From Fidelibacterota bacterium (lineage in GTDB: Bacteria; Fidelibacterota; SORT01), in NCBI GenBank assembly GCA_022571215.1, contig JACZYG010000009.1, forward strand, positions 18,663-82,662: DNA of 64,000 nucleotides, written 5' to 3'. Below are positions 10,608 through 38,782 of the stretch, one piece after another. How positions within the stretch are numbered: position 1 is the stretch's first letter; each line of letters begins with the position of its first letter. Position numbers and translations under genes: made by a program. The notes below the pieces were generated by a model. The model saw only the letters and a program-made list of their open reading frames with translations, did no database searches and had not been told where the DNA came from.

Positions 10608-10991
10608 CTATGTCTTCTTAATGTTCCTATTTTCAATCTTCATCATATACAGAACCTCAAAGATAAATAGGAAAAAATAAATTGCAACCAGAATTATCAA
10701 AAAATATCGAATATTTATATTTGCGTACTGATTTAAAATCAAATAAACGCCTAAAAAGATAGCGACTTTGCTTCCGAGACTGAATGAAACACCTTTTAAC
10801 ACCTGAGTATTGTCTCCCTGAGCTCCCCATTTTTTAAAAAAATGACTCGCCTCCATCATACTGAATGCCGTCAGCGCCGCGAATAGGAGAGTTTGTCCGT
10901 CCACTTCGATGAAATTAGAAAAAACGATGTAGATCAATAAAGCTGCAAAAACCGTTATGATCGATCCTAACAGATGAAAATTATTTTTCAA
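10608..10991 (-). CDS. atpI: AtpI-like small membrane protein (ATP synthase protein I)
   Basis: 127 aa, about 4 TM helices, immediately upstream of and abutting atpB. Confidence 0.45.
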   Translation of the reverse strand: MKNNFHLLGSIITVFAALLIYIVFSNFIEVDGQTLLFAALTAFSMMEASHFFKKWGAQGDNTQVLKGVSFSLGSKVAIFLGVYLILNQYANINIRYFLIILVAIYFFLFIFEVLYMMKIENRNIKKT

Positions 10992-34558: not shown

Positions 34559-34996
34559 ATGAAATTAAATATTTTAAATGCGACTCAAGACGATATTCCC
34601 GCTATAACTAAACTGCTAAAGAAAGCAAACCTTCCTCCCGATGACCTTGAAAGGTGGATAGATAATTTTTTCGTTTTGACCATTGAAGGAAAAATAGAAG
34701 GTTGTATAGGACTCGAACATTGGGAAAATACAGGTCTTCTCAGATCGTTTGCGGTGTCAGAGGATTACCGTTCAAAGGGGCATGGGCTTAAACTCTATGC
34801 TGAATTAATAGCTGCTGCAAAAGAGTTGAATTTGAATTCTATGCTGCTACTTGCTAAGGGAGCATCGGGTTTCTTCGAGAAGAACGGCTTTAAGTTCATA
34901 GATAGAAACGAAGCTCCGGAAAGTGTTAAGAACTCTATTCAATTTAAACTTGATGAATGCAGAAAATACGACGTCATGAAACTGGATATTAACTGA
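34559..34996 (+). CDS. GNAT-family N-acetyltransferase
   Basis: 145 aa; acetyl-CoA-binding motif (RSFAVSEDYRSKGHGLKLYAELI). Confidence 0.8.
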   Translation: MKLNILNATQDDIPAITKLLKKANLPPDDLERWIDNFFVLTIEGKIEGCIGLEHWENTGLLRSFAVSEDYRSKGHGLKLYAELIAAAKELNLNSMLLLAKGASGFFEKNGFKFIDRNEAPESVKNSIQFKLDECRKYDVMKLDIN

Positions 34997-35024
34997 TGCC
35001 CTGTATATGTGGCGGTCAGGGCTT

Positions 35025-35145
35025 GCTCTGAAGCCTGTATAACTGAAACCCTCTCTTACTCTTCAAAGTAATACATAAAATCCGTCAATGCGTTCAGCTC
35101 TTTCTTGGGCAGCCAGTCAAATTTCGGCATTATACTGTTCGGCTC
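35025..35145. repeat. Direct repeat, left copy (121 bp; remnant of the 3' end of the cytochrome b/c gene)
   Basis: About 93% identical to 36610..36730. On the minus strand it encodes EPNSIMPKFDWLPKKELNALTDFMYYFEE*, identical to the C-terminus of the 36641..38281 gene, with one synonymous difference. Confidence 0.85.
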
Positions 35146-35339
35146 TCAGAAGCGGATATTTATAAAAAAAATAAGCGATTTCGTTATCGACTGCGTTTTC
35201 TGTTAAGGCTATTTCACTAAATATCAAAAAATGATTACTTAAGAGTATCATTAATATTTTTAAAAGTGTTCGGTGAACATGAGATATAGGTTTATATTAT
35301 TTAAGAACTGGCTGAATCCTGAAATTAGGAGAATAAAAC

Positions 35340-36494
35340 ATGTATAGAGTATTTGTGCTTGGTGCTGGATTTTCACATCAGGCGGGATTGCCCCTTGGTA
35401 ACGAATTATTTGTTCGCATAATCCAAGAATCGAAAAAAGGTGTGCTATATGAAAACATACTTAAAGCAGACATAGAAGATTATATTGACTACATAAAGGC
35501 TACTTCTGGCAAACAAATTATAGAAAGTGAAATTGACTTAGAAAAATTCGCCTCATTTTTAGATATCCAACATCTACTATATCTAAGGGGATCAGATACT
35601 TGGTCATCTGAAGGCAATCGTTCTCAAATTGTAATTAGGAATCTCATAGGTTTAATACTAAACAATAAGATAGAAAATATGAATGATTCTGAAATGAGTT
35701 TATACAATAAATTTGCCTCAAAGCTCGATACGAAAGATTTTGTTATTACATTTAATTACGATACAATTTTAGAAAAGGCATTGGAGGCAATAAATAAGCC
35801 TTACAGACTTTTTCCTCAACGGTTTAGTGCCATTCATTCAACATGGGGTGAAGTTGACACAACCCATGAAGAAGTAGTGATATTGAAATTACACGGCTCA
35901 ATTGATTGGTTTGACATTACAGCATTCAATCGAGAAATAAGTCACATTCATTCAGAAAAAAATTATCAGAAACCTCATCATATAATATTTAGCAATCTGG
36001 ATAAATTTTACCCTGATAAAATAATTGATGAACCATATTTTCAAGATTCAAAATTACAGAATATATATAAGATAAAGAATTTGGATAGATATTACTCAAC
36101 GGCAACATTGGTTGAAGAGGTCCCATTAATTGTTTCACCTTCTTATGTTAAAATATCGTATTTAAATCCGCTTGAAGAATTATGGGGTGCGTTTCATGGA
36201 AGTGGAATGTTAAATTCTGGAATCGCTATAATAGGTTTTTCTATTCCTGAACATGATGAGTATATTAAGCAACCATTGTACTCTATGATCACCGATTTCC
36301 TAAACTCAGATACAAAGAAGATTTTTAGTCGGTTCGGAATAAAAAAATTGCCATTGAAATTTGTCGATTATAGAAAAGAAGAAAAAGATCAGAAAGAATA
36401 TCAAAAGATATTCCAATTTATAGACTGGGAAAAGACCGATCCGTTTTATGGTGGCTTCAATGATGAAGCAATTGATTATTTATTTGATAAATAA
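35340..36494 (+). CDS. Standalone SIR2_2-family protein (ThsA-like NADase fold); putative anti-phage defense effector
   Basis: 384 aa; VFVLGAGFSHQAGLPLGNEL (Rossmann GAGxS), ITFNYDTILEKAL (TNYD), ILKLHGSIDW (LHGS catalytic His), IAIIGFSIPEHDEYI (GxS..D). Strong RBS aggagaataaaacATG. The gene is about 32% GC in a ~45% GC context. Confidence 0.75.
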   Translation: MYRVFVLGAGFSHQAGLPLGNELFVRIIQESKKGVLYENILKADIEDYIDYIKATSGKQIIESEIDLEKFASFLDIQHLLYLRGSDTWSSEGNRSQIVIRNLIGLILNNKIENMNDSEMSLYNKFASKLDTKDFVITFNYDTILEKALEAINKPYRLFPQRFSAIHSTWGEVDTTHEEVVILKLHGSIDWFDITAFNREISHIHSEKNYQKPHHIIFSNLDKFYPDKIIDEPYFQDSKLQNIYKIKNLDRYYSTATLVEEVPLIVSPSYVKISYLNPLEELWGAFHGSGMLNSGIAIIGFSIPEHDEYIKQPLYSMITDFLNSDTKKIFSRFGIKKLPLKFVDYRKEEKDQKEYQKIFQFIDWEKTDPFYGGFNDEAIDYLFDK

Positions 36495-36609
36495 TAAAAT
36501 AAGAGGTCATCACATTTTAGAGGATGGGTCAGGATTAATTGATGCTCATGGCGAAGATGTCAATATAATTGATCTTCCTGACATTAAATTGTTAAGCGAG
36601 AGATTTAAA

Positions 36610-36730
36610 GCTCTGAAGCCTGTATGACTGAAACTCTGTATTACTCTTCAAAGTAATACATAAAATCCGTCAATGCGTTTAGCTCTTTCTTGGGCAGCCA
36701 GTCAAATTTCGGCATTATACTGTTCGGCTC
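36610..36730. repeat. Direct repeat, right copy (121 bp; functional 3' end of the cytochrome b/c gene plus 31 bp downstream)
   Basis: See the left copy; this copy is contiguous with the intact gene. Confidence 0.85.
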
Positions 36731-38281
36731 GTACTTTTGTGGATCCAAAAAGTGGTCATAGATGTAATCCCTGTCATGCTTAAGCGTGACTCCCGCAAGA
36801 TTCGGGCCGAACCCCGGTTCAGGATCGTCTATCTTATGACAAGCCCCGCATTTGTATGAAGAGAATAAATTCGCTGAATAAAGTATATCTTCCGTCACGG
36901 TCAATAGTTTATCCCTTTGTGGAGTGCTAAGCCGAAAATAGAATGATTTCAAATCTATAATTTGATCGAGCTTTAAACTTGCCTGCTCGACATTTCTTTC
37001 AGGCTGCGCAAGCGAGGGATTGGAAAAATGTTCTTTTAACCAAATAATGCTCTTTTCTCCGCTCGTCTGTAGAAGATCATTTGCTCCCTCACCGTGATTG
37101 CCGCCTATGTTGTGACAATTCATACATGATTCGTTTTGATATAGGTATCTTCCGGACAGCTCTGCGGGTTGTAGTCTGGATGGTTCTTCTTCCTCTGCCG
37201 TCTCAACGACAGCGGTCAATTTTCCTGAACTGTCGTCTGCCGCGCCCATAACGGTAAGACCGCCAACCGTCATCAAACCTATTGCCATTAAGGTTAGTGC
37301 TAATTTTCTGTCTTTAAGTTTTCTGGATCGGTTTCTATCATAAAATGGTAAGAGCAGCAATGCCAAAACTCCTATTGTGGGTATTATTATTGTTCCAATC
37401 AGTTCGAGATTTCCCGGGAATAACTTTTGAAGTTGATACATTGAAAGAAAATACCATTCCGGTTTTGGAACATAAGATGTATCGGTCGGGTCTGCCAATT
37501 TTTCAAGCGGCGCGCCGAACAACATGGCAAAACCGGAAAGTATCAGAAAAATCAGCAAGATGGCTACTCCGTCTTTGAAGAGCTGATCAGGCCAGAAGCG
37601 GGAATCGAACTTGACTTCCTCATCCGGAGATTTGAATGGTGGAGTGATTCCTTGTCTCTTCTGTAAAAACACATGTATAGCTACCGCTCCAATCGTAATA
37701 AGAGGGAGGACGATAACGTGCAGCGAATAAAAATGAGTGAGAGTCACGGAGCCGATGACATCTCCACCCTGCAGTATTTTTTGGATTATATCACCCAGGA
37801 ACGGAGCGGTTCCGGCAATATTGAGCGTTACGACGGTCGCCCAATATGCTTTTTGATCCCATGGAAGCAGATAACCCGTAAGCCCGAATGCCAAAACGAG
37901 ATTAAACAATATTACTCCGAAAACCCAGGTCAACTCACGGGGATATTTGTACGCGGAATATATAAATGTTCTCAGCAAGTGTATCACCGTAAAAACCACA
38001 AAAAAACTTGAACCCCAATGGTGCAGTCCCCGAATGAAACTCCCTAAAAACAGTTCATTCTGAACGTAACTAACGCTCAAATGCGCTGCTTCGGGTGTCG
38101 GCGCATAGAACATGGAAAGGAAAATACCGGTCGCAGCCTGTAATACGAAAAGAAAGAGAGAGATGCTTCCGAACACATGTGTCCAGCCTACGCCTTCGGG
38201 CAGAGGCTCGTCAAGAAGCTCTTTGAATCCCTCCCTGAGGTGAAGTCTTTCATCAAGCCAATTTATGACGGAATTGAACAC
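36641..38281 (-). CDS. Cytochrome b (bc-complex type) fused to a C-terminal diheme cytochrome c domain
   Basis: 546 aa; N-terminal cytochrome b/b6 helices with His ligands (RGLHHWGSSFFVV, THFYSLHVIVLP), a subunit-IV-like region, then two CxxCH motifs (CMNCH, CGACH). Confidence 0.85.
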   Translation of the reverse strand: MFNSVINWLDERLHLREGFKELLDEPLPEGVGWTHVFGSISLFLFVLQAATGIFLSMFYAPTPEAAHLSVSYVQNELFLGSFIRGLHHWGSSFFVVFTVIHLLRTFIYSAYKYPRELTWVFGVILFNLVLAFGLTGYLLPWDQKAYWATVVTLNIAGTAPFLGDIIQKILQGGDVIGSVTLTHFYSLHVIVLPLITIGAVAIHVFLQKRQGITPPFKSPDEEVKFDSRFWPDQLFKDGVAILLIFLILSGFAMLFGAPLEKLADPTDTSYVPKPEWYFLSMYQLQKLFPGNLELIGTIIIPTIGVLALLLLPFYDRNRSRKLKDRKLALTLMAIGLMTVGGLTVMGAADDSSGKLTAVVETAEEEEPSRLQPAELSGRYLYQNESCMNCHNIGGNHGEGANDLLQTSGEKSIIWLKEHFSNPSLAQPERNVEQASLKLDQIIDLKSFYFRLSTPQRDKLLTVTEDILYSANLFSSYKCGACHKIDDPEPGFGPNLAGVTLKHDRDYIYDHFLDPQKYEPNSIMPKFDWLPKKELNALTDFMYYFEE

Positions 38282-38782
38282 CTATGCGACACCCGAGCTT
38301 CTGTCTACGGGTTCGCCTATAAGTAATTTTCCCGCTTCAAATTTAATTTCATGCCTTTTCAAAGGTTTTGGCGGCGGACCGCCAATTACATTTCCTTCTT
38401 TGTCATAAAGGCCGCCATGACAGGGGCATGCAAAACTTTCTCTCTCTTCGTCGAACGAAACGGTACATCCGAGATGCGTGCAGATAGGTGATAGCGCTAT
38501 AAGCTCTCCCTTTGACCTGTAAACCCACGCGGTAGATGAGACTGTTCTCTTATTCCACCCATCTTTTATCTCTTTATTATAATTAACTCCCAAAGGATTT
38601 TCGTTATTGAAATCTTCTACCGCTCCGATCTCTATCCACATGTTTTTGGATTTAATAAAGGCAGGTGAGACAAAGAATGAAACAAGCGGTATGCCCGCCA
38701 TAAAAGTAATAAGACCATAGATACCGGCGGTTACCTTTTTAAGGAACCCTCTTCTTGAAAAATCGCTTTTAACTTTATTCAT
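38282..38782 (-). CDS. Rieske [2Fe-2S] iron-sulfur protein
   Basis: 166 aa; twin-arginine-like N-terminus (SRRGFLK); CTHLGC...CPCHG boxes. Confidence 0.9.
   Translation of the reverse strand: MNKVKSDFSRRGFLKKVTAGIYGLITFMAGIPLVSFFVSPAFIKSKNMWIEIGAVEDFNNENPLGVNYNKEIKDGWNKRTVSSTAWVYRSKGELIALSPICTHLGCTVSFDEERESFACPCHGGLYDKEGNVIGGPPPKPLKRHEIKFEAGKLLIGEPVDRSSGVA

What the first reader, a model, noticed from the sequence alone, without database searches (positions are those of the whole stretch)
35340..36494. Standalone SIR2_2-family (ThsA-like) protein as single cargo of an AT-rich islet: candidate single-gene NAD+-depleting defense system
The 384-aa protein carries the full set of SIR2_2 motifs used by defense NADases (Thoeris ThsA, DSR, SIR2-HerA): GAGxS Rossmann start (VLGAGFS), TNYD (FNYDTILE), LHGS (KLHGSIDW) and the distal GxS..D block (IIGFSIPEHDEY). 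It has no SLOG, TIR, HerA, pAgo or STAND partner domain, and no partner gene inside the islet. Known SIR2 defense proteins are either much larger single proteins (DSR1/DSR2) or multi-gene systems; a roughly 380-aa SIR2-only effector with a ~130-aa uncharacterised C-terminal extension would be a minimal, potentially undescribed architecture. Its base composition (~32% GC versus ~45% in flanking genes), strong RBS and bracketing by direct repeats all mark it as horizontally acquired.
Basis: partly seen in the sequence, partly recalled or inferred. Interest (0 to 1): 0.85.

Follow-up and report, generated by a model that had tools for sequence, protein, structure and literature searches.

The report
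Solo SIR2 NADase-like gene islet
A single, recently acquired gene for a 384-residue SIR2-type NAD-processing enzyme sits alone between two core genes of a Marinimicrobia bacterium, is present in only some cells of the same natural populations, and most resembles the NAD-destroying effectors of anti-phage systems while lacking any of their known partners.

Summary
ORF 35340..36494 (+) encodes a 384-aa protein that passes Pfam SIR2_2, and every catalytic motif is invariant across the family. It has no cysteine, so it has no sirtuin Zn module. It is the lowest-GC gene in the window (31.5% against 42%) and is bracketed by a 121-nt direct repeat at 96% identity.

I found the empty site. In several metagenomes of the same species, GNAT and cytochrome b converge with a 9-nt spacer. 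The 1.63-kb insert lies between ACTGA pentamers, and both alleles coexist in three samples.

Across 153 non-redundant loci there is no conserved partner. Type IIG R-M enzymes (6 loci), a 580-aa unknown (5), giant STAND NTPases (3) and TIR proteins (3) recur only rarely. Family genes are on average 8.5 GC points below their flanks.

The best reading is a mobile, single-gene, defence-type NADase (about 0.5). Function is inferred, not shown. The SIR2_2/SIRim clade was already predicted to be immune, so I rate this a new variant of a known kind.

The parts
34997..36627 (.). The inserted segment (1,631 bp) that is absent from empty-site alleles of the same species
   Evidence: Contigs L089-L096 join window 34996 directly to 36628 at 99.4-100% identity. 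L003, L192, L193 and L194 carry the insert.
34992..34996 (.). ACTGA pentamer at the left junction. It contains the TGA stop codon of the GNAT gene. It is repeated at 35042-35046 and at 36628-36632, the right junction.
   Evidence: Junction alignments A3 and A5.
34997..35041 (.). 45-nt block between the first two ACTGA copies. Its last 17 nt (GCTCTGAAGCCTGTATA) repeat the right end of the insert. It may be a remnant of an earlier or tandem insertion.
   Evidence: The origin is unresolved.
35025..35145 (.). Left copy of the 121-nt direct repeat. It belongs to the insert and contains a diverged pseudo-copy of the last 30 codons of cytochrome b (35056-35145, minus sense).
   Evidence: 96% identical to the right copy. 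Empty alleles match the right copy at 100% and this copy at 96%. Three of the 4 mismatches to the native site over the 106 nt that the empty allele also has lie in the 9-nt spacer, and the fourth is synonymous; the repeat's fifth mismatch is in the 16-nt extension that the empty site lacks.
35146..35339 (+). AT-rich upstream region with RBS AGGAG at 35327-35331. DNA homology to the orthologous islet in L001 starts at 35251.
   Evidence: No sigma-70 consensus promoter was found.
35340..36494 (+). SIR2_2 family gene, 384 aa, with predicted catalytic residues N139 and H185
36448..36627 (+). 59-aa ORF overlapping the SIR2 3' end. The part after the SIR2 stop codon (36495-36627) looks like the C-terminal remnant of an unrelated gene. 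It is not conserved in the L001 orthologous islet.
   Evidence: no homologue in any fetched locus, and none in PHROGs.
36610..36730 (.). Right copy of the 121-nt repeat. From 36628 onward it is native sequence: a 9-nt spacer plus the true 3' end of cytochrome b (36641..38281, minus strand).

Best explanation
The gene encodes a stand-alone member of the SIR2_2 ('SIRim') branch of sirtuin-fold enzymes. It belongs to a compact family of single-domain proteins of about 380 aa that move horizontally as one-gene islets.

Its most likely role is that of a defence-type NADase. It would be kept inactive in uninfected cells, probably as a homo-oligomer, as is the case for the SIR2 dodecamer of SIR2-HerA and for the ThsA, Avs5 and FAM118B filaments. 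On infection it would be switched on and hydrolyse NAD+ through the N139/H185 site, arresting the cell (abortive infection). Because no sensor domain or conserved partner exists, sensing would have to reside in the family-specific conserved surfaces. Candidates are the helical small-subdomain block at residues 68-96, the segment of roughly 65 aa after the catalytic His, and the C-terminal beta-alpha units. Alternatively it could respond to a metabolic cue.

Shown: family membership, intact and selected active-site motifs, fold, absence of a Zn module, solo architecture, mobility, and presence/absence polymorphism.

Inferred: NADase activity, oligomeric control, the trigger, and the defence phenotype.

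For: Active site and selection: the catalytic N/H and the GAGFS and GxS..D motifs are invariant in 50 sequences. There are zero cysteines, so no Zn module, which is a feature of the SIR2_2 NADases (PMC12700824). dN/dS is 0.17, uniform along the protein.

Mobility: empty and occupied alleles occur at 99.4-100% flank identity, and they coexist in ERZ23499476, SRR24269684 and SRR24269690. The 85%-identical orthologue sits at an unrelated locus, with homology limited to promoter plus ORF. Across 96 loci the gene is 8.5 GC points below its flanks, against +2.3 for control genes, p = 5e-31. The family spans more than 10 phyla.

Solo architecture: no neighbour family occurs in more than 6 of 153 loci. 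Nearly all complete members are 368-410 aa.

Defence context: the recurrent neighbours are type IIG R-M enzymes, a STAND NTPase and TIR proteins, with single cases of Avs2, HamB and Mrr, plus integrases and transposases. The literature reports that the SIRim clade neighbourhood is 12-fold enriched in defence systems (10.1101/2024.09.18.613514).
Against: There is no experimental evidence for NADase activity or phage protection for any member of this family. The nearest characterised relative, the SIR2 of SIR2-HerA, is auto-inhibited or inactive without HerA (PMC11472057 and PMC13434337), so a partner-less version needs an activation route that is not known.

The window islet lies among housekeeping genes, not in a defence island. 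Many homologue neighbourhoods are housekeeping too. Enrichment of defence neighbours for this particular family was not quantified against a control. In a sister clade the gene is operonic with a giant STAND protein, so some members are not autonomous. Only 64 kb of the host genome was visible, so an unlinked partner cannot be excluded.
Confidence: 0.5

Rival explanations
1. The gene is an effector that needs an unlinked or lost partner. It would be the NADase module of a two-component system, with the sensor/activator (a STAND NTPase or a HerA-like ATPase) encoded elsewhere in the genome. Alternatively it is an orphan left after the partner was lost.
For: In three loci of the sister clade (L004, L007, L081) the gene lies 11-30 nt from a STAND NTPase of about 2,000 aa, in either gene order. 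Five loci have a same-strand upstream protein of 388-627 aa, the U580 family. The closest structural relative works only with HerA.
Against: There is no HerA, STAND or U580 relative anywhere in the 64-kb window. No partner family is found in more than 4% of 153 loci, and HerA-type models match at most 1 of the 114 immediate neighbours scanned. The gene travels alone: homology between the two Marinimicrobia islets covers only promoter plus ORF. Purifying selection (omega 0.17) and intact ORFs in all 7 alleles argue against a decaying orphan.
Confidence: 0.25
2. The gene is a mobile SIR2_2 enzyme with a role outside defence. It could be a toxin or addiction module, or an NAD-dependent modifier (ADP-ribosyltransferase or deacylase) of a protein, nucleic acid or metabolite. 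In that case it would be carried as an accessory gene for inter-element conflict or niche adaptation.
Against: The closest matches are consistently NAD-depleting immune effectors. There is no adjacent antitoxin-like gene conserved between orthologues, no macrodomain or lipoyl-carrier partner as in SirTM operons, and no Zn module for deacylation.
Confidence: 0.15
3. The gene is a housekeeping sirtuin paralogue, that is, a CobB-like regulatory deacetylase.
Against: The gene is absent from most conspecific contigs: all 8 contigs retrieved via the GNAT protein are empty-site alleles. It has the lowest GC in the window, and family-wide GC is depressed. No conserved operon exists. Pfam matches SIR2_2, not SIR2; there are no Cys residues and no Zn ribbon; NCBIfam finds no equivalog.
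Confidence: 0.03

Closest known systems
SIR2 subunit of the SIR2-HerA (GAO_19 / Nezha) anti-phage system
   Different: There is no HerA gene next to it, in the window or in 153 homologue loci. Sequence identity is only 15-20% and TM-score about 0.5. About 120 residues do not align. The family has its own conserved blocks (residues 68-96, P262-Y274 and the C-terminal beta-alpha units). Whether it forms a dodecamer is unknown.
Thoeris ThsA (SIR2-SLOG)
   Different: There is no SLOG or Macro ligand-binding domain and no ThsB/TIR gene in the islet, so a gcADPR-type activation route has no visible receptor.
DSR1/DSR2 (defence-associated sirtuins) and Avs5 (SIR2-STAND)
   Different: Those proteins carry sensor or NTPase regions of 500-800 aa fused to SIR2. 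Here the SIR2 domain is the whole protein. In a sister clade a STAND NTPase is a separate adjacent gene rather than a fusion.
Vertebrate FAM118A/B and Kongming KomC
   Different: FAM118B needs its paralogue FAM118A for activity. KomC works with KomA/KomB and a dITP signal. Neither type of partner is present here.

Membership tests
Pfam SIR2_2 (PF13289) / 'SIRim' branch of the sirtuin superfamily | Match to the family HMM above the curated threshold | tested here: met
   38.2 bits against a cut-off of 24.5, E 1.9e-9. Only profile positions 2-64 of 141 are matched. The precomputed PF13289 hit is present on nearly all homologues.
Pfam SIR2_2 (PF13289) / 'SIRim' branch of the sirtuin superfamily | Rossmann GAGxS motif, catalytic Asn (xNYD) and His (HGS) | tested here: met
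   G8-A-G-F-S12, N139-Y-D141 and H185-G-S187 are invariant in 50 sequences.
Pfam SIR2_2 (PF13289) / 'SIRim' branch of the sirtuin superfamily | Absence of the Cys4 Zn-binding module of canonical sirtuins | tested here: met
   The protein has no cysteine at all (translation). The criterion is from PMC12700824.
Pfam SIR2_2 (PF13289) / 'SIRim' branch of the sirtuin superfamily | Fold closer to the anti-phage SIR2 proteins than to canonical sirtuins | tested here: met
Pfam SIR2_2 (PF13289) / 'SIRim' branch of the sirtuin superfamily | NAD+ hydrolase activity | not testable with these tools
   This needs biochemistry.
SIR2-HerA (GAO_19 / Nezha) | Adjacent HerA-type ATPase gene in an operon with SIR2 | tested here: not met
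   The large ORFs of the window are housekeeping genes and the flanks are GNAT and cytochrome b. Among the 114 immediate neighbours scanned, no HerA/DUF87 family reaches 2 members. There is no such cluster in 153 loci.
SIR2-HerA (GAO_19 / Nezha) | SIR2 subunit homologous to GAO_19 SIR2 models | tested here: met
SIR2-HerA (GAO_19 / Nezha) | Ring-shaped SIR2 dodecamer or tetradecamer that docks onto a HerA hexamer | not testable with these tools
   Only a monomer could be modelled.
Thoeris type I/II (ThsA + ThsB) | SLOG or Macro domain fused to SIR2, with a TIR-domain ThsB gene nearby | tested here: not met
   There is no second domain and no TIR gene in the islet. TIR neighbours occur in 3 of 153 loci only.
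DSR1 / DSR2 | N-terminal SIR2 plus a large C-terminal sensor region (protein of about 1,000 aa) | tested here: not met
   The protein is 384 aa. Complete family members are 368-410 aa.
Avs5 / bNACHT-SIR2 (SIR2 fused to a STAND NTPase) | STAND/NACHT NTPase in the same polypeptide | tested here: not met
   There is no P-loop domain. A separate adjacent STAND gene occurs only in L004, L007 and L081.
SPARSA (short pAgo + SIR2-APAZ) | APAZ domain and an adjacent short pAgo gene | tested here: not met
   The Aga_SIR2 models match only the SIR2 part (residues 5-224). There is no pAgo neighbour.
Canonical sirtuin deacylases (Pfam SIR2 PF02146, CobB-like) | PF02146 match and a Zn-ribbon Cys4 module | tested here: not met
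   There is no PF02146 hit at E up to 1, no NCBIfam hit and no Cys residue.
Self-mobile integrative element (integrase-bearing island, transposon or integron cassette) | Own recombinase or transposase gene, or terminal inverted repeats / attC | tested here: not met
   The insert holds only the SIR2 ORF plus a 59-aa remnant ORF. No tRNA gene is present. The ends are direct repeats, not inverted ones. The short contigs show no circular signature. Direct repeats flanking the insert are present (121 nt, and the ACTGA pentamers).

The most novel reading that the evidence does not exclude
The family could be a minimal anti-phage immune system consisting of a SIR2 domain only. A single protein of about 380 aa would sense infection through its own family-specific surfaces or its oligomeric state and deplete NAD+, without any HerA, STAND, TIR, SLOG or pAgo partner. 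It would spread across more than 10 bacterial phyla as a one-gene islet, and it would be the free-standing form from which the STAND-linked and HerA-linked versions are elaborations.
Probability: 0.35. Interest if true: 0.65.

Novelty: new variant of a known kind. Interest (0 to 1): 0.5.

Why it matters
All characterised SIR2 immune effectors are controlled by a fused sensor or a partner protein. A partner-less SIR2 of about 380 aa that still protects would show the smallest self-sufficient NADase immune module. It would also pose a clean question: how is a bare SIR2 domain kept off and then switched on?

The natural populations found here are polymorphic for a 1.63-kb single-gene insertion at a defined site, and both alleles occur in the same samples. 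That offers a rare field system in which gene presence could be correlated with viral pressure in uncultured Marinimicrobia.

If the protein instead proves partner-dependent, the STAND-adjacent sister clade points to a 'split Avs5' arrangement worth testing.

Tried and rejected
(1) HerA, STAND or U580 partner elsewhere in the window. tblastn with all candidate partners found nothing. Ten large ORFs are housekeeping genes.

(2) A conserved neighbour across homologues. BLAST clustering of neighbours in 80 and then 153 loci, plus aggregated Pfam and PADLOC scans, gave only minor clusters.

(3) The apparent 'cluster 3' of upstream neighbours turned out to be split SIR2 pseudogenes and one tandem paralogue.

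(4) A link between the L001 405-aa neighbour and the U580 family. hhalign probability is 0.75%, so I rejected it. The HEPN reading of U580 rests only on an Rx4H motif and is unverified.

(5) A circular or extrachromosomal form of the islet. The short contigs are collinear with the chromosome and have no terminal overlap.

(6) A simple Campbell-type or attP x attB integration model. It does not explain the extra 45-nt block and the third ACTGA. Excision between the 121-nt repeats would not give the observed empty site. The insertion mechanism is left unresolved.

(7) Phage origin. There are only 3-4 full-length relatives among 2.9 million viral contigs, a weak PHROG hit (E 0.002), and no close BFVD fold match.

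(8) Exact-protein look-up of cytochrome b failed, probably because of a different start-codon call. The GNAT look-up succeeded instead.

(10) No sigma-70 promoter or convincing terminator was found around the gene.

Full report
OBSERVATION. AGGAG lies at 35327-35331, 8 nt before the ATG. Only 6 of 68 window ORFs have such a 5-mer Shine-Dalgarno match, so the RBS is strong but not unique. GC falls to 0.30-0.32 between 35200 and 36600, against 0.39-0.46 around it. The gene's 0.315 is the lowest of 68 ORFs, the window mean is 0.42, and 7.5 kb of flank on each side averages 0.417. A 121-nt direct repeat at 96% identity brackets the gene, at 35025-35145 and 36610-36730. The window contains no tRNA gene. 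The only numerical slip is the flank GC, which is about 42% rather than about 45%.

WHAT THE PROTEIN IS. Pfam matches SIR2_2 only (38.2 bits, cut-off 24.5), over residues 134-210. NCBIfam finds nothing. In PADLOC the best hits are the generic 'SIR2' models (PDLC04087, E 7.9e-10, plus nine more). These are the SIR2 component of GAO_19, which is the SIR2-HerA system (naming from PMC11514479). Aga_SIR2 scores 7e-9 over the SIR2 part only, and ThsA1 scores just 3.9e-5.

A 50-sequence alignment of full-length homologues shows G8-A-G-F-S12, N139-Y-D141, H185-G-S187 and G299/S301/D306 to be invariant. It also shows family-specific invariant positions: E68, D75, H78, G84, R156, K183, W190-F191, P262, P267-S268, K271, Y274, F360 and G372. 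The protein contains no cysteine, so it cannot have the Cys4 Zn module that canonical deacylating sirtuins need and that SIR2_2 proteins lack (PMC12700824).

The protein is thus a divergent SIR2_2 member. Its nearest known relative is the SIR2 subunit of SIR2-HerA, which is 360-408 aa and so the same size. The 'roughly 130-aa C-terminal extension' is the rest of this fold plus family-specific elaborations, not an appended domain. dN/dS against the 85%-identical orthologue is 0.166 overall and 0.14-0.20 in each third, so the whole length is under purifying selection.

THE ISLET AND ITS INSERTION SITE. An exact-protein look-up of the upstream GNAT acetyltransferase (34559..34996) returned eight contigs from other metagenomes. 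All of them join window position 34996 directly to 36628 at 99.4-100% identity. In this empty allele the GNAT stop codon (TGA, inside ACTGA) is followed by a 9-nt spacer and then the stop codon of the convergent cytochrome b-c fusion gene (36641..38281; Pfam).

The occupied allele is found in the window, in a second Marinimicrobia MAG (L192, GCA_022563175.1), and in short contigs L003, L193, L194, L195 and L196. L194 covers both junctions in a single contig. Empty and occupied contigs come from the same samples in three cases: ERZ23499476 (L090 and L193), SRR24269684 (L094 and L195) and SRR24269690 (L093 and L196). The population is therefore polymorphic for the insert. None of the short contigs has a circular signature.

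The insert spans 34997-36627 (1,631 bp) and is bounded by ACTGA at 34992-96 and 36628-32, with a third copy at 35042-46. The right copy of the 121-nt repeat is native from 36628 onward, because the empty alleles match it at 100%. The left copy belongs to the insert. It is a 96%-identical pseudo-copy of the spacer plus the last 30 codons of cytochrome b. Three of its four differences from the native site fall in the 9-nt spacer and one is synonymous, which is the pattern expected for an orthologous segment from a related lineage rather than for a fresh duplication.

The first 45 nt of the insert end in the same 17-mer as the insert's right end. The 133 nt after the SIR2 stop codon encode the tail of an otherwise unknown ORF (...FKALKPV*) that has no relative in any fetched locus. 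The insert contains no recombinase gene, and none was seen among the large ORFs of the window that were annotated. I could not fit a simple attP x attB or Campbell integration model to the extra 45-nt block. The history may involve tandem insertion with deletion, or import of an already rearranged allele by homologous recombination through the GNAT and cytochrome b flanks. It remains unresolved.

In a related genome (L001, a 597-kb contig; protein 85% identical) the gene lies at a different locus, after the shikimate operon. DNA homology to the window is confined to 35251-36518, which is about 90 nt of upstream sequence, the ORF and 24 nt beyond it. That site is another low-GC patch, and it also carries an unrelated 405-aa ORF. 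The transferable unit is therefore essentially the gene with its own upstream region.

THE FAMILY AND ITS NEIGHBOURS. The word-indexed search found 582 relatives, and the best 120 nearly all cover the full length. The exhaustive search of 1.84 billion representatives found 157 clusters at E 1e-30 or better. Almost all complete members are 368-410 aa, and only three are longer, at 533-593 aa. NCBI names members just 'SIR2 family protein'. The host of the window is a Candidatus Marinimicrobia/Neomarinimicrobiota MAG.

I fetched 80 loci from GTDB species genomes, which span Acidobacteriota, Ignavibacteriota, Planctomycetota, Chloroflexota, Proteobacteria, Nitrospirota, Spirochaetia and others. 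I also fetched 80 loci from metagenomes and 4 from viral contigs. After crude gene calling and removal of redundant loci, 153 remained.

Clustering of the three genes on either side gave only these recurrent neighbour families:
- Type IIG restriction-modification enzymes in 6 loci (MmeI/Eco57I; PADLOC REase_MTase_IIG, E down to 1e-274).
- An unannotated protein of 388-627 aa immediately upstream on the same strand in 5 loci ('U580'; no Pfam, PADLOC or PHROG hit; invariant Rx4H near the C-terminus).
- A STAND NTPase of about 2,000 aa, 11-30 nt away in either gene order, in 3 loci.
- TIR proteins in 3 loci.

Aggregated Pfam and PADLOC scans of 114 immediate neighbours show no HerA, pAgo or ThsB family with 2 or more members. 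They show single cases of Avs2, HamB and Mrr, and many plainly housekeeping genes such as enolase, RNR, PheRS and RuvB. Integrases and transposases lie near several members.

In a neighbour-joining tree the window protein sits in a 10-member clade that is mostly solo. The three STAND-linked genes form a separate sister group.

Family-wide, the gene is 8.5 GC points below its flanks on average. It is lower in 94% of 96 loci and lower by more than 5 points in 75%. Control genes three to four positions away are 2.3 points above their flanks (Mann-Whitney p = 5e-31). This is a family that is habitually horizontally acquired and is normally a single-gene unit. Phage carriage is rare: 3-4 full-length hits in 2.9 million viral contigs, a weak PHROG hit, and no close BFVD fold.

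HOW IT MOST LIKELY WORKS. The following are established:
- SIR2_2 fold.
- Intact catalytic signature that is under selection.
- No Zn module.
- Nearest relatives are NAD-depleting immune effectors.
- Solo architecture.
- Mobility and strain-level presence/absence.

From these I infer a defence-type NADase that causes abortive infection. All characterised relatives are regulated through higher-order assembly: the SIR2 dodecamer or tetradecamer on HerA, and the filaments of ThsA, Avs5 and FAM118B. Homo-oligomeric auto-inhibition with infection-triggered release is therefore the most economical mechanism. Sensing would be assigned to the family-specific conserved surfaces.

The main weakness is that the SIR2 of SIR2-HerA is inactive without HerA (PMC11472057, PMC13434337). 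A partner-less relative therefore needs an unknown switch. The STAND-adjacent sister clade shows that some close relatives do use a partner. I give the single-gene defence NADase reading about 0.5, a partner-dependent effector about 0.25, a non-defence mobile NAD-utilising enzyme or toxin about 0.15, and a housekeeping sirtuin about 0.03.

COMPARISON WITH WHAT IS KNOWN, AND NOVELTY. The protein is a member of Pfam SIR2_2/SIRim, with all testable criteria met. It is not a member of SIR2-HerA, Thoeris, DSR1/2, Avs5, SPARSA or Kongming as systems, because each defining partner or fused domain was tested and is absent.

Bonhomme et al. (10.1101/2024.09.18.613514) already argued that most bacterial SIRim proteins are immune, citing a 12-fold enrichment of defence neighbours. 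The general prediction is therefore not new. My full-text searches found no paper that describes or tests this specific solo family of about 380 aa.

I classify it as a new variant of a known kind, a SIR2 immune-type effector without any sensor or partner. Interest is moderate at 0.5. The architecture is interesting and experimentally tractable, and the natural insertion polymorphism is a useful handle. The function, however, is inferred, and uncharacterised SIR2_2 proteins are numerous.

Noticed in passing
L004:1934-9140, L007:8001-15212, L081:3819-11134: In three loci a family member lies 11-30 nt from a STAND NTPase of about 2,000 aa, in either gene order. The NTPase has an NPHP3_N/NACHT-like P-loop at about residues 285-430 and a weak PADLOC Avs1b hit. 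This is a candidate two-gene 'split Avs5-like' system. L007 additionally has a TIR_2 protein and a 627-aa unknown directly upstream.
   Followed up: partly
L007:5977-7857, L079:2436-4184, L115:4427-6076, L116 (gene directly upstream of the SIR2 gene), L143:1354-2517: An unannotated protein family of 388-627 aa lies directly upstream of the SIR2 gene on the same strand in 5 of 153 loci. It has no Pfam, PADLOC or PHROG hit. An invariant R..H pair (Rx4H, HEPN-like) sits near the C-terminus. The HEPN assignment is unverified.
   Followed up: partly
L001:8483-9700 (minus strand): The orthologous islet in a related genome carries an extra 405-aa AT-rich ORF, divergent from the SIR2 gene, with no hit in Pfam, PADLOC or PHROGs. 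It is unrelated to the U580 family (hhalign probability below 1%).
   Followed up: partly
L044:8648-9664; L114:10001-11137; L122:9989-11149: L044 has a second, shorter SIR2_2 paralogue (339 aa) in tandem just upstream of the family member. In L114 and L122 the family gene is split into two ORFs, which could be pseudogenes or sequencing frameshifts.
   Followed up: no
window 36641-38782 (minus strand): The gene next to the islet is a cytochrome b (N- and C-terminal domains) fused to a mono-haem cytochrome c domain, followed by a Rieske protein. In the empty allele it converges on the GNAT gene with only a 9-nt spacer. An 8-bp hairpin (GTATTACT-CTTCAA-AGTAATAC, 36638-36659) spans its stop codon.
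   Followed up: partly
window 34997-35041 and 36611-36627: The insert begins with a 45-nt block whose last 17 nt repeat the insert's right end. The heptamer TAACTGA/TGACTGA occurs three times, at 34990, 35040 and 36626. This suggests serial or tandem events at one site, but no recombinase is encoded in the insert and none was seen among the window ORFs annotated.
   Followed up: partly
window 10608-10991 (minus strand): A 127-aa ORF has the second-lowest GC in the window (0.341). It was not examined.
   Followed up: no
P0154, P0163, P0167: A few family members are longer (533-593 aa) with the SIR2 part at the N-terminus, so fusions to an extra C-terminal region are possible. Their domains were not analysed.
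   Followed up: no
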